NCBI RefSeq assembly: GCF_964204645.1 | Contig: NC_134028.1 | Coordinates: forward strand, 13,439,263 to 13,503,262 | Direction: 5' to 3' | Length of the DNA stretch: 64,000 nt | Source: Tubulanus polymorphus | Taxonomy: Eukaryota > Animalia > Nemertea | Shown here: piece after piece, positions 694-55,874 of the stretch | How the letters are laid out: the number at the start of each line of letters is the position of its first letter | Position numbering within the stretch: position 1 is the first letter of the stretch | Translations under genes and position numbers: made by a program | Notes under the pieces: model-generated | What the model saw: the letters and a program-made list of their open reading frames with translations, nothing else | What the model was told of the DNA's origin: nothing | Database searches by the model: none

Positions 694-725
694 AATTTTA
701 ACTTTAATAAAAATATATATAATAA

Positions 726-1490: not shown

Positions 1491-2350
1491 TCAGAAAGTA
1501 ATTATCTAACACTCAAAAAGTAATAAAGGTTGAAAATTGTATAAAATAATAGTAAATAAAAAAGGGGGTTTTAAGTATTTAAGGTATCTAATAGGGTATC
1601 AGGTATTAGGGTATCAGGTATTAGGGTATCTAATGGGGTATCAGGTATTGGGGTATCTAATACATAGATATATAAATAGTTATTTTATAAATTTATATTC
1701 ATAGGGAAATTGTAGTCTCAGTAATAATTTTGAACCTTTATTATTCTTTAATTTATTCATATATTCATCATCTAATTCAGTAGGTATAATTTGATTTTCT
1801 TCCAATGATTGTTGCATAGATTTTTTATCTTTGTTATAAAATAAAACTAGAAATCTTATATTCTCCCTAAAGTCTTTAACAATTGAATTATATTTTTATG
1901 AAGAAAAGATACGGTAGAGAAATTGAATAGCTTGTTAGGGTCTGATAGTGAAAGTGATTCAGAAAGTAATTATCTAACACTCAAAAAGTAATAAAGGTTG
2001 AAAATTGTATAAAATAATAGTAAATAAAAAAGGGGGTTTTAAGTATTTAAGGTATCTAATAGGGTATCAGGTATTAGGGTATCTAATGGGGTATCAGGTA
2101 TTGGGGTATCTAATACATAGATATATAAATAGTTATTTTATAAATTTATATTCATAGGGAAATTGTAGTCTCAGTAATAATTTTGAACCTTTATTATTCT
2201 TTAATTTATTCATATATTCATCATCTAATTCAGTAGGTATAATTTGATTTTCTTCCAATGATTGTTGCATAGATTTTTTATCTTTGTTATAAAATAAAAC
2301 TAGAAATCTTATATTCTCCCTAAAGTCTTTAACAATTGAATTATATTTTT
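1429..2350. repeat. Tandem duplication (~468 + ~453 bp) containing GGGTATC/GTATTA short repeats and the ATPase 3' end
   Basis: TATGAAGAAAAGATACGG starts at ~1429 and again at ~1897. The second copy has one fewer 15-bp GGGTATCAGGTATTA unit. Confidence 0.9.
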
Positions 2351-2744
2351 GATTTAAAACCCATGTTGTTATCCCGAAATGTCTCCCAGAGAAAGCTAAA
2401 TAACATAACTCACTTTCTCTCACTTTTGAATCATGTAAATTGGCGCAATCATCTATAATGAATAATGTATTTGATCCGTTATAAGTATCAATTGCTATTT
2501 TAATACAATTATCTAAATTTTCTTTTACTGTTTTAGGATCTAATATAATAAACTTTTTCATCTTAACTATGTCTCTATTATATGTTTTATTCATTTCATA
2601 AGTAGGACAGAATAATATTATATTATCAAAATGATTCTTATAAATAGTTTCTAACAAGTCTAATATGAAATGTGTTTTACCACAATTGGTTACTCCAGTA
2701 ACTAACATATTATGTGGTTCAAATATAAATAAATCTTTATTCAT
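2133..2744 (-). CDS. A32/FtsK-HerA family genome packaging ATPase
   Basis: Walker A GVTNCGKT, Walker B FIIDD, GRH arginine-finger motif, and NQ sensor. Confidence 0.92.
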   Translation of the reverse strand: MNKDLFIFEPHNMLVTGVTNCGKTHFILDLLETIYKNHFDNIILFCPTYEMNKTYNRDIVKMKKFIILDPKTVKENLDNCIKIAIDTYNGSNTLFIIDDCANLHDSKVRESELCYLAFSGRHFGITTWVLNQKYNSIVKDFRENIRFLVLFYNKDKKSMQQSLEENQIIPTELDDEYMNKLKNNKGSKLLLRLQFPYEYKFIK

Positions 2745-3849
2745 TTATTCTTTTAATTTTACTAGATAAAATCCATTCATTAAATTTATCATCATATCCT
2801 TTATATTTCACCAAAGAATACTTTTTTCCTTTAAGAGTTTTTGTTTTCAATACTTTTTCTATTTTGTATTCTATTTCATCTGGATTTGGTACAAGTGATA
2901 ATTCTTGTTCGTAGAAATAACCTAATATTTCTTCATCTTTTAGATCTTCTAATTTATAAACAAATGGTTTAGTTAATATTATCTTTTTAATCTTGAATAT
3001 TTCTTCTGTAAAATTAGGGGTATAACCTTTATAAAAGGTTTTTCTATATTTAGATATTCTAACGTGTTGTCTAATTTTAAATTTAGGTTCACCGAAATCA
3101 TGTGTGACAAATGCTCCATATAAATTATTCCAAACTATTTCTGAATTATCTTGTTTTCTAGCTGGTATAGGTTTCATATTTATAGAACTATGTTTAGAAT
3201 TATTATAACCTTTCACTAAATCATCTAACACATCGATATATTTATATGTTTCATTAGCAGTAAAGTATTTCCACATTCTAGTTTTCAATGTTTTATTAAA
3301 TCTTTCTATAATAGATGCTTTTTTATCTGAGTGGGTTGAAAAATAGTCTACATCGTTATCAGATAATAGTTTTTTAGAATGTTTGTTATAAAATTCCTTA
3401 CCTTCATCAAATTGTATCTTATCTGGAATAGCTTCTTTAAATATAGATTTAAAGGCATTTGTTACTTCTATACCAGTTTTATTTTTGATTGGAATTGACC
3501 ATGCGTATCTACTGAATATGTCTATAACATTAAGTATCCAGAAATATCCTTTGTTGTATTCCTCTAAGTTCTTCATGTCAATTAAATCTGCTTGCCATTG
3601 TTGATCGATATATGAAACCATAACTTTTCTTGTTAAATAAGTTTTATCCATTTTCTTGTGGATTTGATATGTTGGTTGATTTTGTAACCATGATTTTAAT
3701 TCACTATATTTTATACCACCATGTGGGTGCCATACGGCACCATCACCATTATCAGATTTAATTTTATTCCATAATTCTGAAACGTTAGAATATGATAGTT
3801 CACTTTCTGGGTTATAATATAAATCTCTTAAATATTGTTCTTTTTTCAT
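2737..3849 (-). CDS. Retroviral-like (RVE, DDE) integrase with C-terminal chromodomain
   Basis: WQADLIDM, IDIFSRYAW, FDEGKEF and ERFNKTLK motifs; C-terminal YKIEKVL...VKYKGYDDKFNEWI chromodomain. Confidence 0.95.
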   Translation of the reverse strand: MKKEQYLRDLYYNPESELSYSNVSELWNKIKSDNGDGAVWHPHGGIKYSELKSWLQNQPTYQIHKKMDKTYLTRKVMVSYIDQQWQADLIDMKNLEEYNKGYFWILNVIDIFSRYAWSIPIKNKTGIEVTNAFKSIFKEAIPDKIQFDEGKEFYNKHSKKLLSDNDVDYFSTHSDKKASIIERFNKTLKTRMWKYFTANETYKYIDVLDDLVKGYNNSKHSSINMKPIPARKQDNSEIVWNNLYGAFVTHDFGEPKFKIRQHVRISKYRKTFYKGYTPNFTEEIFKIKKIILTKPFVYKLEDLKDEEILGYFYEQELSLVPNPDEIEYKIEKVLKTKTLKGKKYSLVKYKGYDDKFNEWILSSKIKRINE

Positions 3850-6779: not shown

Positions 6780-7031
6780 TCAAATAGAATCATGTTCTAG
6801 TAAAAATATCGGATCCTTGATATCAAATTCCTCAACGTATTGTTCATTATTTGGATCATTATTCCATAATTCAATAAATTTCTTTGCCTTTGTTAACTGT
6901 TCTGAATATAACTGTAAATATTCTAGTTTCAATTTATTCTCTAAATGTGTTTTAGTTTTATTGTGTCTTGCTTTTTGGGATTTATCTATATTGATTTTAC
7001 ATGTTGGACAGTAGTACTTATTTGCTTCCAT
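6780..7031 (-). pseudogene. Deletion chimera: pPolB N-terminal Zn finger joined to an HNH gene tail
   Basis: The first 38 aa are nearly identical to 48111+ (MEANKYYC). The rest matches the C-terminus of 5095..5763 (LQLY.EQLTKAKKF). Confidence 0.8.
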
Positions 7032-7079
7032 TTTAATAATAAAATTTTTATTAAAATTGATTTTAAAAGTTCAATGATT

Positions 7080-7515
7080 TAAATGTTATTCATTTATATG
7101 AATATTTTAAGAGTAATAGGGGTAATGGGCTTTCGGGTTAAAGGTTGAATGGTCGAGTTCATTAAAAACAAATATTAAAAGTAATTTAAAACTATAATAT
7201 ATTTTCATAACCGTGTGTATTTCAGTTGAATAATAGAATAATTATTATTATTTGAATATATTTGATTATATGAATTTGTGTATTGTAAATAAATCAATTG
7301 GTCGCGGAGCGGAGCGGTAGCGAAGTGGAGCGACCAATTGATTTAATACAATATGCTTTTTAAATTATTGATATCTTAGTATAAATATTTAGTTATAATA
7401 TAAAATGCACACGGTTATGAAAATATATTATAGTTTTTAATTACTTTTAATGTTTTGTTTTTTAATGAGCTCGACCGTTCGACCTTTGATCTGAAAGCCC
7501 ATTACCCCTATTACT
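7080..7515. repeat. Terminal inverted repeat of copy A; 7112-7515 is itself a palindrome
   Basis: AGTAATAGGGGTAATGGGCTTTC at 7112 with its reverse complement ending at 7515. It matches 32761-33142 in inverted orientation and 46090-46425 directly. Confidence 0.9.
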
Positions 7516-29770: not shown

Positions 29771-29857
29771 TTATTGGGAAAAAAAATTACTTGTGGTGAT
29801 GAGTGGTGTTTCGCCCGCTCCCCGCTGATCTGAAAGCCCACTTTCCCAATTACTACT

Positions 29858-32760
29858 AATCTATAAAATGAAACCTGATTTAACACAACTTATTTCCTGA
29901 ACAGTTACTGCACATAGTCATTGTAACGCGATGGTGGTCTCACCACTCTACCCGATCGAGTGGTAGTTAGTTCAGTTTGTGCATCATCCGAAGCCGTAGT
30001 CATTGACTCTGGAACTGACAAGTCATCGATGGTTGCCGGAAAGTGTTCCTCCTGTGTTCTGCTCAACTGACGCCTATTTCTGCGATAATATTGTCCTGAT
30101 TCAGCGACAACATTGTACGAACGCGGTTGTGGTGGAGAGCTAACCACGCGAGCTGGTTTCCATCGCTTATTATCACGAATTCGAACGCCAATCGTTAGAG
30201 GTTGCGCTCGCTCCACGATCGTAGTATCTCTTTTGCCGCCAGCGTTTCTCCTCTATGTTACGACGCGTTGTAGTTGGATCGCTGACTCTCGGACACAACA
30301 TGTTTTCAGTTGCAGGTATGATTGAGTTTAATCTGCGATTCATCAATACCTGACTCGGTCACGATCGATTGGAGTATTTCGGTACCCCAGAAGCGCTAGG
30401 TACGGATCGTTTCCGCTTTCCTTACACTTTGTGAGTATGGTTGAATCCCCATTCTCATGAGAATCGCTTAAACTCCTGTGAGCTGTACTGTGGACCGTTG
30501 TCACTTACAACCTCCTTAGGAATTCCATGTCTCGCGAAGAGAGATTTCATATGTGTAATCACGGTAAGCGATGTTTTATTTGACAGTTTCGCTATTTCTG
30601 GATAACGTGAGAAATAATCCACCACGCGAACGTAATCGCCACCGTCCCATTCAAACAAATCCGACGCGACCACTTCCCATGGTCTTGCCGGAACGACGTG
30701 TGACATCATCGGCTCTTTTACATTCGCGTTTTGATGTTCTAGACATATTTACTGAGACACCATATCTTTGACCTGGGCCGTCATGCCTGGCCAAAATAAC
30801 AGATCGCACGCACGCTTGATGCTCTTTTTCTACGCCAAAATGACCAACGTGTATTCGCTAAAGCATTTCTTTGCGTAACGCTTTGGGAGCTAGGATTCGA
30901 TTTCCTTTCAGAATCAGTCCGTCTACTACAGTTAACTCGTTTCGCACACTGTAGTACGTGTTCAATTCCAACGGTAATTTCTCTCGCTTTGTCGCCCAAC
31001 CGGTTGCTATCTCATGTGTTAATTGACACATGGACTGGTCTCTACCCAATTCCGACTTAAGCTCCTGTAGCTTTTCATGTGACATACGTTCGTTCGCTAC
31101 GACCATGTTGACATATTCTTCGACTTCATTGTCCATGTTTCCCGATGTGTCTGGCAGTGGTGCCCGGGATAACATGTCCGCTATTAATAGTAGCTTTCCG
31201 GGTTTATATCGCACTACAAACGAGTATCGCTGAATACGTAATAACATTCTCTGTAGACGCGGGGGTGCTGCTGCTAGAGGCTGTTTTAGTATTGCCTCTA
31301 GAGGCTTATGACCCGTTTCGATGTCAACCGTTTGACCGCAAGTGTATTGGTTGAATCGTTCCAACCCAAACACGATGGCTAACAGTTCTTTCTCAATCTG
31401 CTTATAGTTCATCTCCGCTTTTGTCAACGAACAAGATGCGTATGCAACAGGACGATTTTCCTGTAGCAGAACTGAGCCCGGACGAAACTGAGAAGCATCA
31501 CCACTCACAGTGACCGGTTTCGTCACATCGAAGTACGTCAAGACTGGTCCCGGCTCACGCGTTAACACATCCTTCAGTACTTTGAATGCTTCGATCTGAG
31601 GTTTTTGCCACGCAAATTCCACATCATCGTGTAGTAACTCTCAAATCGGTGCTGTAATTTTCGACATATTTGGCACGAACTTAGCCAAATAGTTAACAGT
31701 GCCCAACAGACGTTGCACTCCCTGCTTATCGGTGGGTGCCGGCATCTCGCTGATTGCCGTGATTTTCGCTTGCTGCGGTCTTACACCGTTAGCGGTAAAC
31801 GTGTGACCAATGTAATCGATCTCTGGAACCGAGAACTCACACTTCGGTAGATTAAGTGTCAGTCCTATTTCTTTACGACGTTGCAATACCGCATGTAACC
31901 GCTGGTCGTGTTGCTGTTGATTTACGCCCCACACGATCATGTCGTCTATGTCCGTTTCGACACCCTCGATATCGTCGAAAAGTTTTGCTATACGCTTTTG
32001 GAACAATTCCTGCGCCGATTTGATCCCGAATGGCATGCGACGAAACGCATATCGCCCGAACGCGCAATTAAAAGTGGTTAGTAGCTGCGAACCTTCATCT
32101 AACGGTATCTGCCAGTATCCCGAGTTCGCGTCGAGTTTTGAGAATACTTTAGCTCCTGACATCCGCGATGCAATTTCCTCGACCGTGGTTAACTGGTAAT
32201 GATCCCGTTTTATTGCGTTGTTGAGGTCTCTGCTGTCTAAACATGCGTAAATCTCCCGATTTTTTAGCTACTATAACAATATTGCTCACCCAATCTGTGG
32301 GTTCCTCGACTTAACGGATTACTCCGTCGCTTTCCATTTTGCCTAATGTCACTTTTAATTTATCTCGTAACGCAATCGGTTCTTTTCTGGGTGGCCTGAT
32401 CACCGGTTCGATCGACTCATCCACTGTGATCTTGTATGGCTCTTCCAAACAACCCAAGCCCGTGAATACCAACTTGTTTTCTTCAACTATGTTGTTTGTA
32501 CTAATGTTCATTACGACGTTTATCAGCTCCAAATCCCGCGACGCACAAAATTCGAGGACTGGAGTCTGATCTGTTTCTACCACATAAAACTTTAAGAACT
32601 TTCCTCCGCATCTAATCACGCACGTACCCGTTACCGGTATGTTATTGCCGCTAGTCAACTTGGTTTTTGCCGCTGTCAGTTTGGGAGCCCGTTTATTGCA
32701 CTGTAGTTGTCTAAAGTTCTTAGCTGGAAGTATGTTTACCTGAGACCCTGTGTCAATATA
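29858..32760 (-). mobile_element. pol: Ty3/Gypsy retrotransposon, pol part (integrase, RNase H, RT, protease C-half), decayed
   Basis: LDANSGYWQ, MPFGI, DIDD, DASQF...YAS, EKELLAIVFG, PWEVVASDLF and SDNGPQY. GC content is much higher than in the Polintons. Confidence 0.93.
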
Positions 32761-33142
32761 AGTAATAGGGGTAATGGGCTTTCAGGCCAAAGGTCGAACG
32801 GTCGAGCTCATTAAAAAACAAAACATTAAAAGTAATTTAAAACTATAATATATTTTCATAACCGTGTGTATTTCATAACCGTTGGTCGCTCCACTTCGCT
32901 GCCGCTCCGCTCCGCGACCAATTGATTTATTTGCAATACACAAATTCATATAATCAAATATATTCAAATAATAATACTTATTCTATTATTCAACTGAAAT
33001 ACACACGGTTATGAAAATATATTATAGTTTTAAATTACTTTTAATATTTGTTTTTAATGAACTCGACCATTCAACCTTTAACCTGAAAGCCCATTACCCC
33101 TATTACTCTTAAAATATTCATGTAAATGAATAACATTTAAAT
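32761..33142. repeat. Left TIR of copy C (palindromic 32761-33107)
   Basis: Inverted copy of 7080-7515 with a small internal deletion. Confidence 0.9.
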
Positions 33143-33197
33143 TCACAGATTATTCAATATAAAAGTGTAAGCTCTTATAGAATAGATATATAGATAG

Positions 33198-33809
33198 TTA
33201 TTTTATAAATTTATATTCATATGGAAATTGTAGTCTCAGTAATAATTTTGAACCTTTATTATTCTTTAATTTATTCATATATTCATCATGTAATTCAGTT
33301 GGTATAATTTGATTTTCTTCCAATGATTGTTGCATAGATTTTTTATCTTTGTTATAAAATAAAACTAGGAATCTTATATTCTCCCTAAAGTCTTTAACAA
33401 TTGAATTATATTTTTGATTTAAAACCCATGTTGTTATCCCAAAATGTCTCCCAGAGAAAGCTTAATAACATAACTCACTTTCTCTCACTTTTGAATCATG
33501 TAAATTTGCGCAATCATCTATAATGAATAATGTATTTGATCCTTAATAAGTATCAATTGCTATTTTAATACAATTATCTAAATTTTCTTTTACTGTTTTA
33601 GGATTTAATATAATAAACTTTTTTATCTTAACTATATCTCTATTATATGTTTTATTCATTTCATAAGTAGGACAGAATAATATTATATTATCAAAATGAT
33701 TCTTATAAATAGTTTCTAACAAATCTAATATGAAATGTGTTTTACCACAATTGGTTACACCAGTAACTAACATATTATGCGGTTCGAATATGAATAAATC
33801 TTTATTCAT
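33198..33809 (-). pseudogene. Packaging ATPase, copy C (premature stops)
   Basis: Near-identical to 2133..2744. Confidence 0.88.
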
Positions 33810-34914
33810 TTATTCTTTTAATTTTACTAGATAAAATCCATTCATTGAATTTATCATCATATCCTTTATATTTCACCAAATAATACTTTTTTCCTTTAAG
33901 AGTTTTTGTTTTCAATACTTTTTCTATTTAATATTCTATTTCTTCTGGATTTGGCACAAGTGATAATTCTTGTTCATAGAAATAACCTAATATTTCTTCA
34001 TCTTTTAGATCTTCTAATTTATAAACAAAAGGTTTAGTTAATATTATCTTTTTAATCTTGAATATTTCTTCAGTAAAATTTGGGGTATAACCTTTATAAA
34101 ATGTTTTTCGATATTTAGATATTCTTACGTGTTGTCCTATTTTAAATTTAGGTTCTCCGAAATCATGCGTAACAAACGCACCATATAAATTATTCCAAAC
34201 TATTTCCGAATTATCTTCTTTTCTAGCTTGTATAGGTTTCATATTTATAGAACTATGTTTAGAATTATTATAACCTTTCACTAAATCATCTAATACATCG
34301 ATATATTTATATGTTTCATTAGCAGTAAAATATTTCCACATTCTAGTTTTCAATGTTTTATTAAATCTTTCTATAATAGATGCTTTTTTATCTGAGTGTG
34401 TTGAAAAATAATCTACATCGTTATCAGATAATAGTTTTTTAAAATGTTTGTTATAGAATTCCTTACCTTCATCAAATTGTATCTTATCTGGAATAGCTTC
34501 TTTAAATATATTCTTAAAAGCATTTGTTACTTCTATGCCAGTTTTATTTTTGATTGGAATTGACCATGCGTATCTACTGAATATGTCTATAACATTTAAT
34601 ATCCAGAAATATCCTTTGTTGTATTCTTCTAAGTTCTTCATGTCAATTAAATCTGCTTGCCATTGTTGATCAATATATGAAACCATAACTTTTCTTGTTA
34701 AATAAGTTTTATCCATTTTCTTGTGGATTTGATATGTTGGTTGATTTTGTAACCATGATTTTAATTCACTATATTTTATATCACCATGTGGGTGCCGTAT
34801 GGCACCATTTTCATTATCAGATTTAATTTTACCCCATAATTCTGTAACGTTAGAATATGATACTTCACTTTCTGGGTTATAATATAAATCTCTTAAATAT
34901 TGTTCTTTTTCCAT
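33802..34914 (-). pseudogene. RVE integrase, copy C (stop at 33928 removes the chromodomain)
   Basis: Near-identical to 2737..3849; the DDE core is intact. Confidence 0.9.
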
Positions 34915-34920
34915 CTTATT

Positions 34921-35289
34921 CTAATCCATTAATAATAATTTAGATTTAGTTTCAATAGCTTTATGATTTGACTTATTTTCTGGTATAATAGGTTTATTAT
35001 CATTGGAATCATCTTTATCATCAGATTTGAATTTTGATTTATATATTACACCGGATAATATAATAATTGTGATTAACCCAATTGTAATATATAAGTAATT
35101 ATTTCTTCCACTATTAGAAGAATCAGATGGATTATTACTTGAATCAATATCAGATAAAGTCTGTGATTCATTTATATCAGTTGATTTCTTTTTCTTAGCT
35201 TTTTTTAACTCTGAAGATCTTTTACCTAATTCTCTTGCCCATTTAATTTGTTTTTCAGATCTAGCCTTTTTCTTAACGCTATCACTCAT
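34921..35289 (-). CDS. Single-TM basic protein
   Basis: Homolog of 3856..4245. Confidence 0.75.
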   Translation of the reverse strand: MSDSVKKKARSEKQIKWARELGKRSSELKKAKKKKSTDINESQTLSDIDSSNNPSDSSNSGRNNYLYITIGLITIIILSGVIYKSKFKSDDKDDSNDNKPIIPENKSNHKAIETKSKLLLMD

Positions 35290-35888
35290 TTATTTTAGTT
35301 AATTTTTGTTCTGATTCATTTTCTGTTTCGACGTTTGGTTGTAGTACAGCGTCATCTGTTTCGTTCTTACCTGATTTATATTCCATAGGTTTGATGTTCG
35401 AAAATGTTATGACGCCAGTAGAAATTAATGTCATAACCGATCCTAATTGAAATGAAGCATAGCCGACCCACTTTGTAATTCAGTCATAACTAAATAGTCA
35501 TTTTCAAATCACTATATAATTTATTTTCATCATTAATTGTCATTAACCGGTTACATAATTTTGAATAACATTTTATAATACTATCTGAAATAGAATCATT
35601 TATTCGAGCCAATCTAGCTCCTTCATAAATCTTAAAATATTTTATTACTTTATCTGGTTTCATAGCATCTAATTCTTGAAAAGTAATTATTTTCCCGATA
35701 AACTGATTACATTTCCCACCAGCAATTAATAATTCTAGATGGTGTTTACAATATAAATAGTATTCATAATCAATATCACAATTAATATTATTTTCAATTT
35801 TGATTGGAATATCCTTATTATCACTAATGCATAAATCATCTAATGTTTTTTCAATGTTGGTATTATTCTTATTAGATTTCTTTGACAT
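35282..35888 (-). pseudogene. Homolog of 4238..4846, frameshifted
   Basis: Collinear DNA similarity. Confidence 0.75.
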
Positions 35889-36999
35889 TTATATTAGAGA
35901 AAAAAGCAAGAAAAATATTATAAATATTCTTCAAATGATACTAGCTAGTTAAAGCTAAAGAATTTCTATTTGAATCTATTCAAAATATAAAGTATTCTCT
36001 TTTGAAAAGAAAGTTTTAAAAATATAATAGAATTCACTAGCTAGTTGAAGTTAGTTTTTTAAATACTTTTTATTTAAATTAGGATTTAGATTATCTCACT
36101 ACTATTGTTTATCTATTAGGAGCAGTAATTATAACTGTCCAGATAAGTCATTTCGGATTCTCGATAAATAAATCCTAAAACTGAAAATAAATTCAAAGAA
36201 ACGACTGGTGGAAATACTATTTCATAAACACACATATATTTTATTCTACAATCATTATCGATTTCCACATTCCAAGCCGCTCAACTCAGGCCCGGTAAGT
36301 TATGCGTGGAATGCAGGAATCAATAAAATACAATACAACATCTGTCACTGTGTGTCATTAACAACAGCTTAATGACGCAATTGAAATTCCGACAAACGTA
36401 ATGCATTGAAAGCCTATACAGTATGGCTAAACTGCTACAGTCTCATGAGTTGAAATATCCATTATTTCTGATTCCACGTCCATATATCTTCACTTTCTTG
36501 ATTCAATGGTCTTCATTTTGTTATCTAAAAGATAAATATCTAGCGTAGAATAAAACTAACTTGAAGTTGTAGTTGTAAAATATTAATTACAGCACTTAAA
36601 CATAGCCATTCGTGGCGCATCTTTGTCCGATAAGTTTTACATGTTTAGCGTTTCCCAACGCCTTAATAACAACAAAAACAGTACTTACATTTATAACTGT
36701 AAAATTGTGTTTATAGAGAGAATATCCTATACGTTCCTATGCTTATGTGCTGCGCGCTTATAACTGCCAGTTATTCACTAGCTAAACACTGTCTGATACA
36801 ACATATGTTCCTTCCTTTGTAATATAATTGATTAATCCTTTTCAACTGCAATAGAACATTCGATCGATATTCAAATGAGATACACCCTATTCAACTGAAT
36901 ATAACGTGCGACAGATGCTTTTGTAAACAACCTAATACAATTACATACAGGCGGTTTGACATAGATCGAGAGTAACCGGTTTTCTAAGCGGTTAACATT

Positions 37000-37615
37000 C
37001 AACGTATTTTTCATTATGTGTTGAATTCCATCATTCAACAAATGTCTTTGCTTTATCCAGTTGATCTAAATATAATTTCATATCTAGTTTATTAGATTTA
37101 AAGGTCTTAAATTTTTCCAGCTCCATATTAGCTTCTTATTATAATCATCATTCATGTTAAATTTAGAAATCGGCAACACATGATCAATATGAAAGTATTC
37201 ACCATAATTATCTATATTCATTTTATCATCGAATTGATATATTATCCATGATATGAAAAATTCATCTGAACAGATTAGATAGTGTTTCTGAATGTGTTTC
37301 TTTGTTGAATAATTGTGTTAATCTAGATCTTAAGCATTGTTTCAATCTAAAATTAAGATCTGTTTGATATCTTTCTCTCATATATTCTGCCATATAATAA
37401 TTATAATGTTCTATATTATCTTCTCGATATCGTTTGGTATATAGTTTAAAAGAAGTTTTACAGCAATATTGAAAACCATCTTTGCTAATCTTACGCTTAC
37501 TAAATTCTGTTAAAGCTAATTTATCTAATTCAAATTTAGAACACTTCTTGTAGTATATATTTATGACACCAGTGTTATTTGTAATATTGATAGTTTGTGG
37601 TTGTTCTGGTTCCAT
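37000..37615 (-). pseudogene. HNH endonuclease, copy C, frameshifted
   Basis: ORF 37262..37615 is near-identical to the N-terminus of 5095..5763. The HIDHVLP motif is readable near 37180. Confidence 0.8.
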
Positions 37616-37784
37616 TTATTATACATTTATTATTTTTTTACTAAATTGATTTTAGAAGTTATTCATTTATATGTTATTCATGAATATATATGAATTATTT
37701 CAATAAAACTTTACTAACACTTTTAATGTTTAAAAATCTAACTCATACAAATATAAATATTGAAATATGTTTAAAATATACCTA

Positions 37785-38145
37785 TGTATTAGATACCCTA
37801 TTAGATACCATATTAGATACCCTAATACCTGATACCCTATTAGATACCTTAATTACTTAAAATCCCCTTTTTAAAAATAAATATTATTTATACAATTTTC
37901 AACCAATTTATTTTTATTTTTTAACTAATATATGAATTAGTTTGAAAATAATAAAGGTTATTTATTATTACTGAGGTTTCAATATAATTTAAGTTATTTT
38001 CAAATAATATGTATTAAATACGTATTAGATATGTATTAAATACGTATTAGATATGTATTAGATACGTATTAGATATGTATTTGATACCTTAATACTTAAA
38101 ACCCCCTTTTTTATTTACTATTATTTTATACAATTTTCAACCTTT
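37785..38145. repeat. Intergenic GTATTAGATAC-type short tandem repeats in two related blocks
   Basis: 11-bp units at 37785-37850 and 38030-38090; inverted counterpart of 1560-1670. Confidence 0.8.
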
Positions 38146-38160
38146 ATTACTTTTTGAGTG

Positions 38161-39069
38161 TTAGATAATCACTTTCTGAATCACTTTCATCATCACTCTC
38201 CTCCAATTCATCATCACACACTTATTCTTCACCCTTTTTACCGTATCTTCATAAATAATTGGTTTATTGATATACTTATTAGTCATCTCAACTATATCTT
38301 TATTTTCTGATTTAAGTTTCATAGAATCTTTATTATCAATGCGCTTTCCTGTAACTATATCACCATGTGGGTGCCATACAGCACCATTTTCATTATTATC
38401 TTTATTAGTGTTTGCTCCTAATATTTCATTTACAGTGTTTGATTCTAATATTTTATTAGCATCGGTTAAATCTAATTCATCTTTATTAGGTGTTGCTAAT
38501 AATAAATCTTTATATAATTCTTTACCATTTACTTTTTGATTTGAAACAAACTTTGTAACATATCTAAATGGGTGTTCTATAAATTCTTTTAAACCAACAC
38601 GTTTTATAACATTAGTAATATGTGAATTTGTATTCATATGATTATTCCAATTTGATGGAGCGTTTGAAAATTCGCCTTTACAATAATCACAATAATTTCT
38701 ATTTTCACTAACATTTAATATTATTTCATTATTAGATGTAGAAGGTATTACATTATTAGATGTAGAAGGTATTACATTATTAGATGTAGAAGGTATTACA
38801 TTATTAGATGTAGAAGGTATTACATTATTAGATGTAGAAGGTATTACATTATTAGATGTAGAAGGTATTACATTATTATCAATTACATTACTTAAATTAT
38901 CAACAACACCACTTTTATTATTATCGATTTCTATTAGTTTAGTTTTATAAATTTTGAAAATAGGATCAAATATCAAAGCTATATTACAAGGTATTACATA
39001 ATATAAACCATCATTATTTTCATGTGTATCGATGTATGGAATATGTTTATATACTTTACCTCCTTCCAT
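38161..39069 (-). CDS. Hypothetical Zn-finger protein with a 24-bp tandem repeat (VIPSTSNN x6)
   Basis: Open 302-aa ORF; repeat at ~38730-38880. Confidence 0.75.
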   Translation of the reverse strand: MEGGKVYKHIPYIDTHENNDGLYYVIPCNIALIFDPIFKIYKTKLIEIDNNKSGVVDNLSNVIDNNVIPSTSNNVIPSTSNNVIPSTSNNVIPSTSNNVIPSTSNNVIPSTSNNEIILNVSENRNYCDYCKGEFSNAPSNWNNHMNTNSHITNVIKRVGLKEFIEHPFRYVTKFVSNQKVNGKELYKDLLLATPNKDELDLTDANKILESNTVNEILGANTNKDNNENGAVWHPHGDIVTGKRIDNKDSMKLKSENKDIVEMTNKYINKPIIYEDTVKRVKNKCVMMNWRRVMMKVIQKVII

Positions 39070-39101
39070 TTATTATATAAATTTTTATTAAAGTTAAAAT
39101 T

Positions 39102-40349
39102 TTAATACATAACACTATTCAATTGAGAATTTACAATATTTAATTGCGCGTCAGATATAATATAAATATGCATTTTGAAATTTAGGCTTCCTTTTTTCTT
39201 TGTCATGAATAATTGTATTCCATCTTTAGTGTTCTGTAGTTTTTTTCCAGAACCATGTAATGAATTATCCTCTGTTGTTCTAAAATCTAACCATAATGCA
39301 TATTTATTGCCGGTATAATAATCAATTTGATTAATATTACAATTTTCAAATGATTTTACTTTTTCATTCATAAAATGTTTTCTAATTTCTGGCCACTGAT
39401 CTATCAATCTCATTCCTTGACAAAATATTTTATTTGCTATTCCTTCGATAGTTATTTCTACTTTTGTTATTTCAGGATTATAATAATTATCAACCTTTAT
39501 TGCGCCATTAGAATATGTTGCAATGGTAAAAAATATTAATGTACCTTTAATAGATCTTCTTGGGAAGTTAATATTCTCATTAATAATTTCATCATTTGCA
39601 TTAATAGTTACAGTTTTAAATTTATCAATATAATCATATAATAATGAAAATCCTTGATTGTATTGAGTTTGAATTATACTTGAAATATTTTCATCAGTTA
39701 CTGTGTCATATTCTAAACATATATTCGATAATTTATAACTCATATCTTTATCAACGCTAGATATTACAATTTCATTTACAGGAGCAAATGTTATTTCGAA
39801 TATAACGTCTTCTTAAATTACGTATTTATATAAAGGTGCATTGTTATTTATCAATTCAAAGTCTAATGGAATTTTATATTTGATTCCATATATACTTTTT
39901 ATCAATTTATCTACAGCATTAGTTAATATTGCGCTATTAGCTTCTGATCTTAATTTATTTTGGTTTTCTGATTGGATTCCTTGAAATATCATATTATTTC
40001 TATTTTCTTTAGTTAACCATAAATTTTTATAATGCATAAATAAATTATAATCATCTAATGAGAAAACAGTTTCTGGACCAATCTTTATAGTTAATTTTTT
40101 AATCAAATATCTCCCAACATTATCAACAACATAATTATTATTATTACCGGTTACTTTTATATCGACTGATAAATAAATACTATTTGGAACATAAAAAGTA
40201 TTTTGTGTAAATCGAGGAATTCTAACATATAAAGTTTCATCGGGATTAATATTAGAAGGGTTATGAGTAATTATATGATGTGATCTTTCTGCTTTAATAG
40301 CATTAGATATTCTATGATTTTTCGAAGGATTGATATAACTCCCACTCAT
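39102..40349 (-). pseudogene. Major capsid protein, copy C (stop at 39813)
   Basis: Two in-frame ORFs homologous to 19254..20504. Confidence 0.78.
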
Positions 40350-40369
40350 TTATTTAACAAAAAAATTAA

Positions 40370-41801
40370 TTATTTATTTTTTATCATGTTTACTAATCCA
40401 AAAATAATAGCACTTACAACTGTAATTAAAAATAAAATAATATGTTCAGCAGCAAAGTTAATAATGTTTCCTGCAGATTTCAATATAAACCAACAATTGA
40501 TGCAATAATTCCTGGTAATGCTGCAGCAGATTTTTTAGATAGTTCCCATAAATATTTTGCTAATTTCTTTAAACCATCCTTAACTTTATCTTGTATAGAA
40601 TTATTATCTGGGGGTTTATCTGGTTTATTTCGAGTAGGAGTAGATTTTAAAGCATTTGATATTGCTAAACCAATTGTTGTAAATAGCATAGTTACAGCTG
40701 TTAGAATTGAAAGAATTGTTATTCCTTCTAATTTAAATAATAACTTTATTCTATCTTTTAATGATTTTTTAGAATCTGGTTTAATCAACAAATCTTTAAA
40801 AACAACTTTTAATCTATTAATATTATAATCATATGATTTTAATAATAATTTAATTTCTTCTTTTTGTAATTCTATGTTATATTCTAAATCATCTTTTTCT
40901 TTTTCTAAATACGCATTTCTTTTTTTAAATTCGATTTCTTCAATAACTTTATTATCTCTATCTAATTTTAAAGTTCTAATTTTTAAATCTCTTATACTTT
41001 TATCATGCGCAATTTTATCAGCTTCATTTCTTATACTAATAATTTCTCTAATTGCTTTATCGGAAAGTATATTATTTAAATCTTCTAATTGTTGATCTGT
41101 TGCATCAAGTAATCCATTTGGTAAAAGTTTTTCAATTGGAACTTTATTTGATTTCAGTTTACTAGCTTTGGAAGTTATATTCTGTTCAGAGTTTCTTTCT
41201 GGTTCTAAATTATTATCGATTGTTTCAAATAATTTATTAATTCTTTGTTTAAATACTCTTTCATTTTTAATAATTTCTTCTTGTGTTACATCTTCTGGTT
41301 CATTACTATTTCTTATTCTTTTAATTCTAGATAGGTCTAACTTAAGCAAAGTTGATTCTGCTAATATTTTTTCTTGTTTTTTATAAGAGATATCAATATA
41401 ATAATCATCTTTCGAACGATAATAATATTCACCATCTAAAAACTTTAATTCTTGTACTAAAAGTCTAGCGCCTCTGTCATTTATATTATATCCAGATTTT
41501 TCAAATATAGGTTTGAAAATTATAAATTTTTAGGTTTTAAATTATAAATATATTCATTATATTCTAAATTTTGTTTTACTAAATCTGGATTTTCATTTTC
41601 AGGAGGTATTCTCGACCTAGTTCTTCTATCAAATTCATCTGTTGATGGGGCTTTAGAACCACTATCTGCTAAATTAGAATTATATGCTGATTCATTACCA
41701 TCATCAATATTAGTTTCTGCATCATTATAATCATCATCAATATATCCTTCATTATTATTTCCCATGCCTTCCATTTCATAATCTTCTCCACCTTCTGCCA
41801 T
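40370..41801 (-). pseudogene. Acidic / coiled-coil / membrane protein, copy C, frameshifted
   Basis: Homologous to 20525..21954. Confidence 0.7.
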
Positions 41802-41822
41802 TTACTTAATAAAAAATTAAAA

Positions 41823-43118
41823 TTAAAAATATAATATTCCTCCGATTACAATTCCTATACAAGTTAAAGCTAATTTAGTATTTTCATGGGATTTATTATC
41901 ATCATTTAGTTTAATTATATCATGTTGAATATTATCAGTTTTAATATTTTCTGATGTATTGTAATCTTTTATTTTAGAATCATTATTTAATTTAATATTA
42001 TTAGTTTTAGTTTCAGTTGATTGAATGTGTTTTTTATTTTTTTCACCTTCCATTAATTTTGGAGCAGTGATAATCTTTTTATTTATATCATTCAATCCAA
42101 ATGAATTATTTATTGTTGCAGTTTTAATTAGATTATTATAACCAATTATATTTCCCATCTTTAATACTAAATCATTAGAAATAATAAATAGATTAGGGCC
42201 TATACAATAATTTAATGTAATATGTGATTTATCTAAATAATTTTGATATCTTACAATGTTTTCTGGAATCGATCTATTTTTATCATTATGAATTAAATCT
42301 TCAAATAATACTTTAAATTGTTTCTGCGCATCGAATGAAGTGTTATCATTTCCAATTATTGGTGATCTTGTTTCAACTTGCGCACCTAGAATACATATCA
42401 AATAACTTCTAATAGATTGATTTATTCTTTGTATACCTGATTTTGTAAAACCTTCACCATTTTCTAAAATGAAATTAACCCAACCATTATTATTATCAAT
42501 TTTATAATTATGATAAGCTCCAATTCTATGAATATAATCAATTCTTTTTATTTCATACTCTTCACCAACACCTTGCAATTTACCATGCGCTCTAAAATCG
42601 GAATTAATATTTATATTAAATTCATTACATATTTTATAAAACTTAGATAGATTAATATTATTATCCAATTCTTTAAAATATTTAGACCCGGGTGAAGGAC
42701 ATTCTAATTAATTTAATATTATTCTGATTTGAAAATATGTGTGAAATCTAAATATTGTGTGAATTAATTTTAAATCAGAATACTTCAAATTTTTATCTAA
42801 GTTATTTAAATGATCATTCCAACTAATTCCACATCCTGTTGTTGCACAATAAACAGCAAAATTTCATTGATTCTGCCAATATTTCATATTAGATTTTACT
42901 TTATATATATGGTATTCATCTCGAGTAAAAGTAACTTCATATGTATTAAATATATTTTCCATTTTAGAAATAAAAAACTGTGATTCAGTAACATAAATTT
43001 CTAAATTAGTTAATGAATTTAAAACTACATTTCTATATGTAATATTTTTCTTAAAATCTATTGTAGGAATATTATATTTAATTGATTTATTATATTGGAA
43101 AGCTTTTGGAAACCCCAT
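41823..43118 (-). pseudogene. Conserved Polinton protein with C-terminal TM helix, copy C
   Basis: ORFs 42864..43118 and 41823..42668; C-terminal LALTCIGIVIGGILYF. Confidence 0.7.
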
Positions 43119-43134
43119 TTATATAATTAAAAAA

Positions 43135-43569
43135 TTAATAATTAACTAATTCTTTTAATAATTTATCTTGTTCTTCAACTGTTATATGACCATTTAAACT
43201 TATTATATAATCTAGTGTATTCTTCAATTTATTAATTTCTTTTATATTAGTTTTAATTTTTTCTTTATTACTTTTTATATTTAATTTTGAACTTATACCA
43301 GTTAAAACACTTGAACTTAATCCTAATACACCAATTGATATAGCTAAAGGTGTTAATGGACTGAATATTGCTAGAAATGTTATTACAGAACTAATTGTAA
43401 CCGAACCACTTATAATCAAATAATATATAATTTTAGATTTTAAATATTTTTTCTTTTTAACTTTTAAGTCACTTTCAAATTCTAATATTTGTTTTTCTAA
43501 ATATGTTTTTAATTTAGTTTTATTTATATCATGAGGAATAATATCAATATTATCAACTTTATCTTCCAT
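43135..43569 (-). CDS. Two-TM-helix protein
   Basis: Intact 144-aa ORF with two hydrophobic helices. Confidence 0.78.
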   Translation of the reverse strand: MEDKVDNIDIIPHDINKTKLKTYLEKQILEFESDLKVKKKKYLKSKIIYYLIISGSVTISSVITFLAIFSPLTPLAISIGVLGLSSSVLTGISSKLNIKSNKEKIKTNIKEINKLKNTLDYIISLNGHITVEEQDKLLKELVNY

Positions 43570-43589
43570 TTATTTAGCAAAAAAAATTA

Positions 43590-44012
43590 CTAATTAGTAA
43601 ATTTATATGCTACAAATATTACAATAACAGTTCCACCTAAAATCCATATTATTTCATATTTCTGTTGTTCTTTACTCGGGGTATAATGATCTGATATTGT
43701 AGGTTTATGTAGATGTAATTTTTCTTTATTTGTTACCGCGTTATATAAACTCATTGCATCATCAACTGATTGAAAATCTCTATGTGAAATCTTCTGATCA
43801 TTTAATTCTTTATTGATGTAATCCATATAGTTTTGTCGTTTTTCTCTATATTCTTCCGCTGCTTTATTATATTTCTCTAATGCTAAGTTATGTCTTTTTT
43901 GTTCTGTTAATGAACCATTTTTATCAATATGCTTGAATAAATAACCACCACCAGTAAATGCTAAAGCGTTAACAATTGCCGATCCTATAATAGTTATAAT
44001 TGCAGAAGCCAT
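43590..44012 (-). CDS. Small protein with hydrophobic N- and C-terminal helices
   Basis: MASAIITIIGSAIVNALAFTGGGYLF...IIWILGGTVIVIFVAY. Confidence 0.78.
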   Translation of the reverse strand: MASAIITIIGSAIVNALAFTGGGYLFKHIDKNGSLTEQKRHNLALEKYNKAAEEYREKRQNYMDYINKELNDQKISHRDFQSVDDAMSLYNAVTNKEKLHLHKPTISDHYTPSKEQQKYEIIWILGGTVIVIFVAYKFTN

Positions 44013-44036
44013 TTATTTAGCAAAATAATTACGCAT

Positions 44037-44258
44037 TTATATGGGAGGAATATATTTTTGTTTTTCCAAATAATCAATAGTTAAATTAGATAAAGTAACT
44101 GCTAACGTTAATTTTAAAATATCATTGATATCAAATCTATCAACATTAACACTTCCCATTTTAAATACTTTTTTTAATACCATTGAATAACCAACAGTTC
44201 CAACTGATAGTAATGCGCCATTATATAATCCAGTTATTATCCACTTATTATCACTCAT
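44037..44258 (-). CDS. Small hydrophobic protein
   Basis: 73 aa, TAAATG start, two hydrophobic or amphipathic segments. Confidence 0.65.
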   Translation of the reverse strand: MSDNKWIITGLYNGALLSVGTVGYSMVLKKVFKMGSVNVDRFDINDILKLTLAVTLSNLTIDYLEKQKYIPPI

Positions 44259-44615
44259 TTATTTATCAAAAAAATTACTATCATCAAAATATTTAGTTAT
44301 CTTATTTATGATTAATTCAACATTTATTTCATTACTAGTTTCATTTGTATATATTTCAATTATTATTTTTTTAATATCATCGATGATAAAATCTTCATCT
44401 AATTCATAAAATCTTAAAGATTCTCTAATTAAATTAGTAATCTTTTCTACATTTAAAGTTTCTTTATCTATTGTTGTTTCATACTCAAATGTTGTTTCAT
44501 TAGAAAATGTAATATTTTTGATATGTGTAATTACATCAGTAATGTTAAATTTCATTTCTTTCTCATGTTTAAAATCAAACCCAAAACATATACTCGGCCC
44601 AACAGTTATATTCAT
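44259..44615 (-). CDS. Hypothetical protein
   Basis: 118-aa ORF with a TAAATG start, packed within the gene block. Confidence 0.6.
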   Translation of the reverse strand: MNITVGPSICFGFDFKHEKEMKFNITDVITHIKNITFSNETTFEYETTIDKETLNVEKITNLIRESLRFYELDEDFIIDDIKKIIIEIYTNETSNEINVELIINKITKYFDDSNFFDK

Positions 44616-44630
44616 TTATATAGTGAAAAA

Positions 44631-45385
44631 TTACTCTTTACATCTTATAACTAATTCATATATCACAGGAAAGTTATTCAAATCAATTAAATAACCATTA
44701 TGATTTCTTATTTCTAATTTAAAATTATTGAAATGTGGAATACAAGGTTTGAAATCACATTCTGTTAAATTATAATTTATTTGAGTTCCAAATTGTTTAA
44801 CATTTTTTAACGGTAAAATATTTAGTATACTAGAACTACAAATTGTTTCTTTAGTTGCTTCGAAAGTTTTTGTAGGCTCGATTAAATTGCAATAAATATA
44901 AAAGTGTGTAAAAGGTAATATATTTGGCGTAGTATCAACATTTGAATAAATTCATTTGGATTAACTCCTAGCATTTTAGCTAATGGTTTTCTTACTATGA
45001 ATTTATATTGTTCATTAGTTAACTTTATTCTTATTTTATTAGTACTATTGATTTTATTAAATTTAATGTTAAACCCAACAGATTCACCCACTTTTAACCG
45101 AGCTCTTCTATTAATTTCTTGTGCTAATGTATCTAAATTGTATAATCCTGGTCTTAGAAATAGATGATATTATTTATCCATATTTCTATCATGAATCATA
45201 AACAATCTATGATCAAAACTTTTATCCGATATATTATAAAAAGAATTACATAAACTTATATTAACTAATTTTAAATCTACACAATTCTTAAATTCTCTAT
45301 CTAATTGTACAAGTAAATTATGAGATTTATAACTAGTAAGTTTTCTTGAATCAACAAATATTCTGTATTCCTTTAATTCCGCCAT
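44631..45385 (-). pseudogene. Minor capsid protein (penton, single jelly-roll), fragmented
   Basis: IFVDSR, SFYNIS, RPGLYNLDTL, YIYCNLIE and EIRNHNGYLIDLNNFPVIYEL, a pattern typical of Polinton/PLV minor capsid proteins. Confidence 0.75.
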
Positions 45386-45402
45386 TTATTTTACATATTT
45401 TC

Positions 45403-45756
45403 TTATTCGAAATCTATTTCATGGTGCCCCTTTTCATTCTTACCTTTGTATACGAAATAGAAATCTCCAGAACATAATTCTTCTAAGTCTTCACTTGATA
45501 ATCTATGAAATCTATCCGGTAAATATGTTCTGAATTTATACGTATTTCCTTTTAATCCTTCATATTCTAAGTGTATAACTAATCTATCTCCATATTTGTT
45601 AGTAACTCTATCAATATTTGTAATTAGACATTTCTTATAGATTATTAATTCTTTTAACTTCTTAAATTTATAATCTACTGATTTGACATTTGAAATATCT
45701 TTTATTCTATCTAGAAATGATTTGTTGTTCTCACTGTGCGCTTGTTTACTCTCCAT
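45403..45756 (-). CDS. Small Polinton protein (possibly OB-fold ssDNA-binding)
   Basis: Intact 117 aa with TNKYGDRLVIHL...YLPDRF; homologs at 15779 and 47867. Confidence 0.7.
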   Translation of the reverse strand: MESKQAHSENNKSFLDRIKDISNVKSVDYKFKKLKELIIYKKCLITNIDRVTNKYGDRLVIHLEYEGLKGNTYKFRTYLPDRFHRLSSEDLEELCSGDFYFVYKGKNEKGHHEIDFE

Positions 45757-45785
45757 TTTAATAACATATTTTTATTAAAATTTGA

Positions 45786-46082
45786 TTAACACGTTAGAAT
45801 TCTTTTCATTATCTCGTTCTCTTTTGTTTCTTCTCTTTTAAATTTTAAGTATTCATCTAAATTACAACCATAAGCAACTGTATGAATTCCATCATCTAAA
45901 ATATATCTTTTATCATCCAATGGGTTTAGACTTATCTTTTCAATTTCTTCAATAAATATTTCATGATCTTCAGATCTTAAACATCTCATCTTATGTTTTC
46001 TAACTTCTTCATTGAATATACAATTGATGTAATCTTTGAAATGAATATTCTTTTCTACTACACTTTTGGTTATTCCTTTGAT
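45786..46082 (-). pseudogene. polB: pPolB C-terminal remnant abutting the right TIR
   Basis: KGITKSVVEKNIHF...SLNPLDDKRYILDDGIHT. Upstream sequence is TIR. Confidence 0.88.
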
Positions 46083-46089
46083 GAAATCT

Positions 46090-46425
46090 TCAAAACTATA
46101 ATATATTTTCATAACCGTGTGTATTTCAGTTGAATAATAGAATAATTATTATTATTTGAATATATTTGATTATATGAATTTGTGTATTGTAAATAAATCA
46201 ATTGGTCGCGGAGCGGAGCGGTAGCGAAGTGGAGCGACCAATTGATTTAATACAATATGCTTTTAAAATTTAAATTATTAATATCTTAGAATAAATATTT
46301 AGTTATAATATGAAATACACACGGTTATGAAAATATATTATAGTTTTAAATTACTCTTAATGTTTTGTTTTTTAATGAGCTCGACCGTTCGACCTTTGGC
46401 CTGAAAGCCCATTACCCCTATTACT
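46090..46425. repeat. Right TIR of copy C (inner arm truncated by the pPolB deletion)
   Basis: Matches 7188-7515. Confidence 0.9.
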
Positions 46426-47020
46426 AATATTGAATCTGATCTTTGTACCATTACAGTACAATGTTACGTAGCACTGTTCATTTGCTACCTCGGTGCTATT
46501 CACTGAACCGACAAAGAGTTCATCTTCCGATGCATTACTATTTTCCTCAGTCTCAACTCTCTGTACTTCCCTTCTGCGACATACTTTACGAAAATGTCCT
46601 ATCCCCTTGCATTTAAGACATTCTTTGCCATATGCTGGACACTGGCGTTTCCCGTGACGTGTCCCGCATTTTCCGCAGTTGAAAATGTCAGATCTCGTTT
46701 GCTGCTTCGCCGACGCCAGCTTATGCGTACCTGAACGCCGCTCTCGTGTCTTCGGTTTTTCCCTTGTTGACTGCTTGAACCTCTGACAATGTTCCGCCTG
46801 CCTCGAAAGAAATATCTTTTACTTGTTTCAATGGCAGTTCATTTGCTCGGCATATTGTGACTGCCTTTCCGAGAGTTAGATCTACTTCTCGCAACAGTCT
46901 CTCTTTTACTCTTTCGTTATCATATCCGCATACTATTCTGTCGCGCACAAGTTCATAGTAAAATGCACCAAAATCACAGTTCTTGGCTATCAAAAGTAGC
47001 TCGGTGACATACTGATCAAT

Positions 47021-47713: not shown

Positions 47714-47724
47714 CGCTGCCACCA
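47714..47724 (-). promoter_or_regulatory. Primer-binding site TGGTGGCAGCG (probably tRNA-Leu)
   Basis: Directly follows the LTR on the minus strand and is complementary to a ...CGCTGCCACCA tRNA 3' end. Confidence 0.75.
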
Positions 47725-55870: not shown

Positions 55871-55874
55871 TCTT

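What the first reader, a model, noticed from the sequence alone, without database searches (positions are those of the whole stretch)
7112..7515. Polinton termini are ~400-bp self-complementary hairpins, each carrying two 'ends'
Each terminus has an outer and an inner AGTAATAGGGG end in inverted orientation (~115-bp arms). Between them is a perfect 15-bp stem (AAATCAATTGGTCGC) closing a loop of GAGC-like repeats. The outer arm (GGTCGAACGGTCGAGCTC) is outermost at all three ends, and the inner arm (GGTTGAATGGTCGAGTTC) is innermost at the two ends that retain it. The TSD lies outside the outer arms. Ordinary Polinton TIRs pair end to end only. This arrangement recalls parvovirus/poxvirus hairpin telomeres, a fossil end-to-end replication junction, or a composite transposon whose ends could move alone.
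Basis: partly seen in the sequence, partly recalled or inferred. Interest (0 to 1): 0.78.

Follow-up and report, generated by a model that had tools for sequence, protein, structure and literature searches.

The report
Double-ended hairpin termini of a Polinton
Each end of this virus-like jumping gene (a Polinton, probably from an animal genome) carries a second, reversed copy of its own tip about 400 bases inside, so the end is predicted to fold into a hairpin; sequencing reads show that sister copies share the design in one fixed orientation, and it likely helps the element start copying itself.

Summary
Terminus A (7112-7515) is an imperfect palindrome: two 113-115-bp arms (102 of 115 columns alike), each starting with the element's end motif, around a perfect 16-bp stem. 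It lies inside a ~440-bp terminal inverted repeat found at both ends of a Polinton family with protein-primed polymerase, integrase, ATPase and capsid genes. Raw reads of one genome run (8,896 laid) show diverse host flanks only at the outer end (2,401 reads); depth rises only 3% across the inner end. Solo hairpins, inner-arm ends and flip/flop are rare or absent, so the MITE, moving-ends, parvovirus and end-to-end-junction readings are not supported. Four pairs of frequent variants look compensatory between the arms (phase not shown), and 9 of 10 arm transitions give G.T pairs on the strand bearing the 3' end. The polymerase keeps a terminal-protein-like domain. Best reading (0.45): the 3' end folds back to rebuild a local duplex end for protein-primed copying; rival (0.3): neutral relic kept alike by arm-to-arm conversion. 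Terminal palindromes are in print for protist virophages and PLVs, and this scan noted Polinton end hairpins on other genomes. New variant of a known kind.

The parts
7077..7515 (.). Terminus A: whole terminal inverted repeat (439 bp), polymerase-side end; true end at 7515
   Evidence: matches 33142-32761 reversed; diverse flanks in reads behind 7515/7516
7077..7111 (.). 35-bp part of the terminal repeat inside the inner end motif
   Evidence: 34 of 35 alike to 33108-33142; 550 reads leave at 7077 into a sequence like B's interior
7112..7224 (+). A inner arm, 113 bp, begins with an exact copy of the end motif
7225..7289 (.). A inner spacer, AT-rich, not complementary to the outer spacer beyond chance
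   Evidence: 1181 of 2000 shuffles score as well
7290..7345 (.). A central stem-loop: perfect 16-bp stem 7290-7305/7330-7345, 24-nt purine-rich loop 7306-7329
7346..7400 (.). A outer spacer, AT-rich
7401..7515 (-). A outer arm, 115 bp, ends at the host junction
   Evidence: empty paralogous site at 14387/14388
6918..7019 (-). start of the polymerase gene next to terminus A (broken off at 6918 in this copy)
   Evidence: tblastn of relative P0121; 660 reads leave at 6918 into sequence matching 48225-48254
2133..3849 (-). A32-type ATPase (2133-2744) and rve integrase with chromodomain (2737-3849) of the element that ends at A
   Evidence: Pfam PF04665 4e-12, PF00665 1e-8
32755..32760 (+). left target-site duplication copy AATATA
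32761..33142 (.). Terminus B, ATPase-side end: outer arm 32761-32875, 8-bp stem 32882-32889/32914-32921, inner arm 32995-33107, 35-bp inner part 33108-33142; outer spacer deleted
33143..46088 (-). decayed Polinton body between B and C: ATPase, integrase (33928-34914), capsid-like gene in pieces (39102-40349), last part of the polymerase (45786-46112)
   Evidence: sister capsid ORF 19785-20504 has jelly-roll look-alikes
46089..46425 (.). Terminus C: inner arm cut at 46089, 16-bp stem 46194-46209/46234-46249, outer arm 46311-46425
46426..46431 (+). right target-site duplication copy AATATT
48077..51509 (+). broken copy of the family's polymerase gene; piece 48345-49157 holds a terminal-protein-like domain with conserved Ser156 and an OTU-like Cys222
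29780..29857 (-). comparator: end of a related Polinton (AGTAGT motif) that shares the first ~30 bp but has no fold-back
   Evidence: -12.9/-15.6 kcal/mol for 158 nt; one copy of its motif in the window

Best explanation
The palindrome is a fixed part of this Polinton family's terminal repeat, and it likely works by letting the strand that carries the element's 3' end fold back on the inner copy, rebuilding a double-stranded end locally for protein-primed copying. Shown: the anatomy, its presence at both end types, integration at the outer end only, fixed orientation, sharing by many copies, and a terminal-protein-like domain in the polymerase. Inferred: that the fold forms when the element is single-stranded (strand displacement, or a host fork passing the integrated copy); that the polymerase initiates on the folded 3' end and copies through it, which keeps the orientation and gives no flip/flop; that the same fold could let the integrase trim host DNA off the 3' end; and that arm-to-arm copying or selection keeps the arms matched. 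In this reading the hairpin does over 400 bases what the standard model asks of two repeats about 17 kb apart.
For: Outer end is the only integration end: 1,964 + 437 reads with unlike flanks (agreement 0.34, 0.35) at 7515/7516, a depth step of 3.4% at the inner end. Of 23 frequent arm variants listed, 8 form four pairs at partner positions with close frequencies (7122/7505 30/22%, 7127/7500 35/34%, 7150/7477 18/18%, 7214/7411 24/27%), 7 turn a wobble or mismatch into a standard pair, 2 make a G.T. 9 of 10 non-redundant inner-outer transitions in A and B give G.T on the 3'-terminal strand (two-sided p 0.021), which folds better than its complement (A -118.6 against -106.3, B -121.2 against -111.8). 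None of the 12 listed variants between 7249 and 7397 falls in the 16-bp stem. Depth at the inner end (2,207) is about twice that of the middle (1,119-1,396), and joints link the inner end to 7459-7470, so sister subfamilies seem to keep two ends with shorter middles. Stem deletions are rare: 36 reads in three joints, 13 more in four small rows, at depth ~1,300. Polymerase N-terminus: model pLDDT 78, beta-sheet with two helices, Ser156 in the loop before the last strand in 76 of 83 relatives, best solved-structure matches Y-family little-finger domains (E 3.5e-3 and weaker), as described for Polinton terminal proteins (PMC11161782 sections 6-7). Analogy: Streptomyces 3' telomere overhangs fold back and are templates for terminal-protein priming (PMC4513846 passages).
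Against: No function was tested and no free DNA form was seen (one search lists no place where many molecules begin or end). A related Polinton in the same window has a plain end, so the hairpin is not needed by every family. 6 of the 23 arm variants break a pair with no partner change listed (37 of 77 variant rows hidden), and 150-nt reads cannot phase the two arms. The wobble bias rests on 10 sites, 5 shared by A and B (p 0.06 for those alone), and strand-biased cytosine deamination would give the same pattern. Both ends of the one TSD-bounded copy have damaged hairpins. The reads come from one run of a species label that I cannot prove is the window's species. No terminus was found in 37 related loci (36 scanned; L037 not scanned), so conservation beyond this genome was not tested.
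Confidence: 0.45

Rival explanations
1. Neutral relic: one copy-back (template-switch) event duplicated the end in inverted form, repeat-to-repeat homogenisation spread it to both ends, and fold-back-templated conversion keeps the arms alike without any benefit.
For: A related element has no fold-back; the spacers show no symmetry; rare reads switch between arm types (9, 9 and 7 reads at three joints); conversion alone explains matched variants; B and C are both damaged.
Against: Arms and central stem stay paired while spacers do not; deletions are about 3-4% of middle depth; subfamilies with different middles appear to keep the inner end; strand-biased wobble.
Confidence: 0.3
2. Self-priming hairpin: the folded 3'-OH primes synthesis directly, as in parvoviruses and as proposed for Halocafeteria virophages, with a resolution step that keeps orientation (perhaps by the endonuclease-VII-like domain in the polymerase).
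For: The fold puts the last base exactly opposite the first base of the inner copy; bias for the 3'-terminal strand; Endonuclease_7 hit in the polymerase; model in bioRxiv 10.64898/2026.07.28.741278 section 7.
Against: No flip/flop; terminal-protein-like domain with conserved Ser retained; no Rep/HUH family among the 25 ORFs scanned of 70 listed; the endonuclease-like stretch is also present in the plain-ended relative (sequence).
Confidence: 0.12
3. Composite element: a ~400-bp non-autonomous mini-Polinton inserted near an older end and took over as terminus; the units can still move alone or be cut at the inner end.
For: The unit has the layout of a miniature element (arms facing in, asymmetric middle); 35 bp of repeat lie inside it; solo ends are known in KolobokP (PMC9587614 section 8).
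Against: As an origin it is not excluded; as present behaviour it is not supported.
Confidence: 0.08
4. Assembly artefact or unrelated high-copy MITE.
For: Palindromes can be mis-assembled.
Against: Three copies with consistent arm-specific differences; continuous raw-read depth over every bin and only 32 of 8,896 reads fitting two places.
Confidence: 0.01

Closest known systems
Polinton/Maverick (adintovirus-type polintovirus) terminal inverted repeats (PMC8097293 section 7 and passages)
   Same: TIR of 439 bp within the reported 46-1,447 bp, 6-bp TSD, AGT-type end, pPolB, rve integrase, ATPase, capsid
   Different: End is AGTAAT, not (AGT)2; the repeat holds an inverted copy of its own first 115 bp. 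'hairpin' and 'palindrom' occur 0 times in that paper's main text, and 0 times in the nematode and coral surveys.
Terminal palindromes of Halocafeteria seosinensis virophages and PLV subtype 4 (bioRxiv 10.64898/2026.07.28.741278, passages and section 7)
   Same: Palindrome within the TIR next to the TSD in integrated Polinton-related elements; hairpin role proposed, accident offered as alternative
   Different: 52 nt in the subtype shown and mostly in elements without pPolB; here ~400 bp, imperfect, Y-like, in a family that keeps pPolB with a terminal-protein-like domain
Streptomyces telomeres (PMC4513846 passages)
   Same: Terminal-protein-primed end whose 3' strand can fold its last bases back on an internal complement
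   Different: Bacterial, 13-nt fold-back among several short palindromes, bound by Tap; no homology; used for end patching
Parvovirus/AAV ITRs and poxvirus flip-flop telomeres (search listing only; mechanism recalled)
   Same: Long terminal fold-back that places the 3' end at the base of the stem
   Different: No flip/flop in reads, no Rep found, integrated by an rve integrase with a 6-bp TSD
KolobokP composite-like transposons (PMC9587614 abstract and section 8)
   Same: ~450-bp terminal units that each carry their own inverted ends
   Different: KolobokP units are direct repeats with TIRs up to 18 bp and abundant solo copies; here inverted, 115-bp arms, no solo signal

Membership tests
Polinton/Maverick | protein-primed family B polymerase | tested here: met
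   PF03175 hits at 27175-28662 and 49512-50465; reads link A's interior to the 48225+ copy; gene broken in all window copies
Polinton/Maverick | terminal-protein domain with priming residue at the polymerase N-terminus | tested here: met
   predicted fold, Ser156 in 76 of 83, weak matches to Y-family little finger and to an adintovirus protein; activity not tested
Polinton/Maverick | rve integrase | tested here: met
   PF00665 1.2e-8
Polinton/Maverick | packaging ATPase | tested here: met
   PF04665 4.3e-12
Polinton/Maverick | double jelly-roll capsid protein | tested here: inconclusive
   atlas look-alikes at 0.96-0.97 with DJR/capsid families on 11-23% of members, recognition under the tool's threshold, for the sister ORF 19785-20504; no Pfam hit
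Polinton/Maverick | maturation cysteine protease | tested here: inconclusive
   none among 25 of 70 ORFs scanned; copies are decayed
Polinton/Maverick | terminal inverted repeats with AGT-type ends and 6-bp TSD | tested here: met
   439-bp TIR; TSD 5 of 6 alike
Parvovirus/poxvirus hairpin telomere | flip and flop orientations in similar numbers | tested here: not met
   same orientation in 3 of 3 window copies; opposite-strand joints at most 9 reads each
Parvovirus/poxvirus hairpin telomere | Rep/NS1 nickase or telomere resolvase | tested here: inconclusive
   no HUH family in 25 of 70 ORFs; an endonuclease-VII-like domain sits in the polymerase
Parvovirus/poxvirus hairpin telomere | free genome with self-priming or closed hairpin ends | not testable with these tools
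   needs extrachromosomal DNA
Composite transposon / MITE | solo units with their own TSD, or use of the inner end for integration | tested here: not met
   depth step 3.4%, no listed loose end at 7112, bound 13%; rare solos not excluded
Known structured RNA family | Rfam match | tested here: not met
   0 matches at E <= 1 in 6900-7700

The most novel reading that the evidence does not exclude
A class of Polinton whose ends each carry their own duplex origin: on single-stranded DNA the 3' end folds onto its inner copy, the integrase trims the host flank off that fold and the terminal-protein polymerase initiates there, so a new copy is peeled out of the chromosome end by end without the two termini ever meeting. 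This would replace the racket model for such families and explain how Polintons leave the chromosome.
Probability: 0.2. Interest if true: 0.85.

Novelty: new variant of a known kind. Interest (0 to 1): 0.55.

Why it matters
How an integrated Polinton gets out of the chromosome and starts copying has not been shown; the standing model is a single-stranded racket held by its two terminal repeats (seen only as summarised in PMC4196379). An end that can rebuild its own duplex over 400 bases, in a family that keeps protein priming and is present in many copies, gives a small, defined substrate for testing initiation and integrase trimming in vitro, and its natural variants give a test of selection on DNA structure. 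If the hairpin is neutral, it is still a clear case of arm-to-arm concerted change and a trap for repeat annotation, since each end looks like a MITE.

Tried and rejected
No whole genome is held, so the copy census was done on reads. Pattern and protein scans of viral contigs found nothing usable. 36 metagenome loci with related ATPases held no recognisable terminus or terminal palindrome; the one genome-collection locus was not scanned. Rfam: no match. Look-ups of earlier findings by this DNA, by the integrase and by genome were empty. Kapitonov and Jurka 2006 and Krupovic and Koonin 2015 are not held. Rejected: end-to-end junction (motifs face inwards); AAV Rep-binding likeness of the loop (5-nt period; AAV motif recalled); cross-mapping of outer-arm reads as the source of matched variants (it would put hundreds of loose ends at 7112; none among the rows shown, 32 of 8,896 reads fit two places). 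The first fold of the polymerase piece, on 4 sequences, was poor (pLDDT 46) and was replaced by the 83-sequence model. The wide structural search was not run.

Full report
Observation. The end motif occurs five times in the window against 0.70 expected, at three termini: A 7112-7515, B 32761-33107 and C 46089-46425. In A the inner arm (7112-7224) and outer arm (7401-7515) share 102 of 115 columns, in B 106 of 115. A folds at -118.6 kcal/mol with z -25. The central stem is 16 bp in A and C and 8 bp in B, each with a 24-nt loop. The spacers between arms and stem are no more alike than shuffles (1181 of 2000). Inner arms resemble inner arms (112 of 113) and outer arms resemble outer arms (109-114 of 115) more than each other (102-106 of 115). 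The terminal repeat extends 35 bp inside the inner motif, 439 bp in all.

Context. A closes an element with an A32 ATPase and an rve integrase that runs off the window's start; a paralogous empty site fixes its junction at 7515/7516. B and C bound a 13.7-kb decayed element inserted in Gypsy-like sequence with a 6-bp duplication, 5 of 6 alike. A lies beside the polymerase start and B beside the ATPase end, so both end types carry the same hairpin. B has lost its outer spacer and C most of its inner arm together with most of the polymerase gene. A related Polinton in the window ends at 29857 in a plain AGTAGT end that shares about 30 bp and does not fold back. The host is a eukaryote, probably an animal (inference from gene content and repeats).

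Copies in reads. No genome is held. Of six runs listed four were laid; only X6 has raw reads, about 12% of it read. It carries the host repeat's empty-site sequence (287 reads), so it is the same or a close species. In the closer lay (896 reads at 88% likeness) 1,964 and 437 reads leave at 7515 and 7516 into unlike flanks, 550 leave at 7077 into a sequence like B's interior, 520 at 7459 and 279 at 7496. No loose end at 7112 is among the six rows shown; 173 rows are hidden and are taken to be smaller. Depth rises by 76 of 2,207 across the inner end. Opposite-strand joints hold 9, 9 and 7 reads (15 joints shown, 11 hidden), so there is no flip/flop. A joint matching B's deletion has 3 reads and A's own flank has depth 8, against 1,119-1,396 in the middle of the hairpin, which points to hundreds of copies (rough inference; genome size unknown). 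Depth at the inner end is about twice that of the middle, and joints of 4-11 reads link 7121-7158 to 7459-7470: sister subfamilies appear to keep two ends around shorter middles, one of about 96 nt (inference from 11 reads).

Signs of maintained pairing. Of the 40 variant rows shown (37 hidden), 23 lie in the arms. Eight form four partner pairs with close frequencies (30/22, 35/34, 18/18, 24/27%), seven turn a wobble or mismatch into a standard pair, two make a G.T, and six break a pair with no partner change listed. Reads of 150 nt cannot phase the arms, and outer-arm depth includes other subfamilies. In the window, 9 of 10 non-redundant inner-outer transitions give G.T pairs on the strand that carries the 3' end (p 0.021; 5 of 5 shared sites, p 0.06), and that strand folds 9-12 kcal/mol better in A and B. 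Selection for folding and strand-biased deamination both predict this. Deletions through the central stem total 36 reads plus 13 in small rows at depth ~1,300.

Polymerase. 660 reads continue from A's interior into sequence matching the copy at 48225 onwards. A piece of that copy folds at pLDDT 78 into a beta-sheet with two helices, with Ser156 in the loop before the last strand in 76 of 83 aligned sequences and Cys222 in 78 of 83. Its best matches are an adintovirus protein (E 1.3e-7) and, weakly, Y-family little-finger domains (E 3.5e-3 at best). This fits the terminal-protein and OTU domains described in PMC11161782 (sections 6 and 7 and passages read). The family thus looks protein-primed, unlike most palindrome-ended elements of Halocafeteria.

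Mechanism. On the 3'-terminal strand the fold pairs the last base with the first base of the inner copy. Extension of that 3'-OH with parvovirus-type resolution would invert the hairpin each round (recalled), which the reads do not show. Protein-primed initiation on the folded end copies through it and keeps the orientation. I therefore favour a local duplex end for protein priming, possibly also a substrate for integrase trimming of the host flank (0.45, inferred). A neutral copy-back relic kept alike by conversion is the main rival (0.3), then self-priming with orientation-keeping resolution (0.12) and a captured mini-element (0.08).

What is known. Eight literature searches found one report of terminal palindromes in Polinton-related elements: bioRxiv 10.64898/2026.07.28.741278 (passages and section 7), 52 nt in the subtype shown and mostly without pPolB. 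The vertebrate (PMC8097293), nematode (10.1101/2023.08.22.554363) and coral (PMC11131425) surveys have no occurrence of 'hairpin' or 'palindrom' in their main texts. Bidnavirus repeats are said not to form hairpins (PMC4061559 passage). Also read as passages: PMC11296320, PMC6431247 (Teratorn internal TIRs), PMC4513846, PMC4196379; PMC9587614 abstract and section 8. The founding Polinton papers and Repbase entries could not be seen, and no supplements were read; either may describe such ends. This scan's unchecked notes report end hairpins of about 200 nt in Polintons on other genomes; my reading was written down before I saw them, and they are leads, not support.

Verdict. New variant of a known kind; interest 0.55.

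Noticed in passing
window 25661-27043 (-): The polymerase of the plain-ended Polinton carries an intein-like insert with a LAGLIDADG domain (Pfam 5.5e-6 and 2.2e-6). PMC11161782 mentions homing endonucleases in Polinton polymerases as likely intein remnants; this one keeps splicing-domain similarity.
   Followed up: partly
window 7121-7158 and 7459-7496, run X6: Read joints and loose ends point to sister subfamilies with shorter hairpins and a variant end that seems present in both the outer and inner copy (279 reads at 7496; 2 reads at the inner side).
   Followed up: partly
window 7054-7110 and 37635-37703: The 35-bp inner part of the repeat and the bases beside it resemble the region upstream of an internal ORF (80% over 71 columns); possibly a shared promoter.
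   Followed up: no
window 1-2350: The element ending at A has an internal inversion (1-1428 against the B-C copy) and a 468-bp tandem duplication.
   Followed up: no
window 29858-47857: Nested cluster: the B-C Polinton sits inside a Gypsy-like element that lies between two other Polinton pieces; four related Polinton copies in 52 kb.
   Followed up: partly
window 54400-61100: 31-bp satellite array of more than 160 units.
   Followed up: no
window 17229-17500 and 13152-13422: Short tandem arrays, one inside the plain-ended Polinton just after its ATPase gene.
   Followed up: no
L001:9082-9359, L002:3029-3105, L004:811-996, L005:3504-3695: Related metagenome loci have AT-rich self-inverted stretches directly after the ATPase stop codon; not termini as far as seen.
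   Followed up: no
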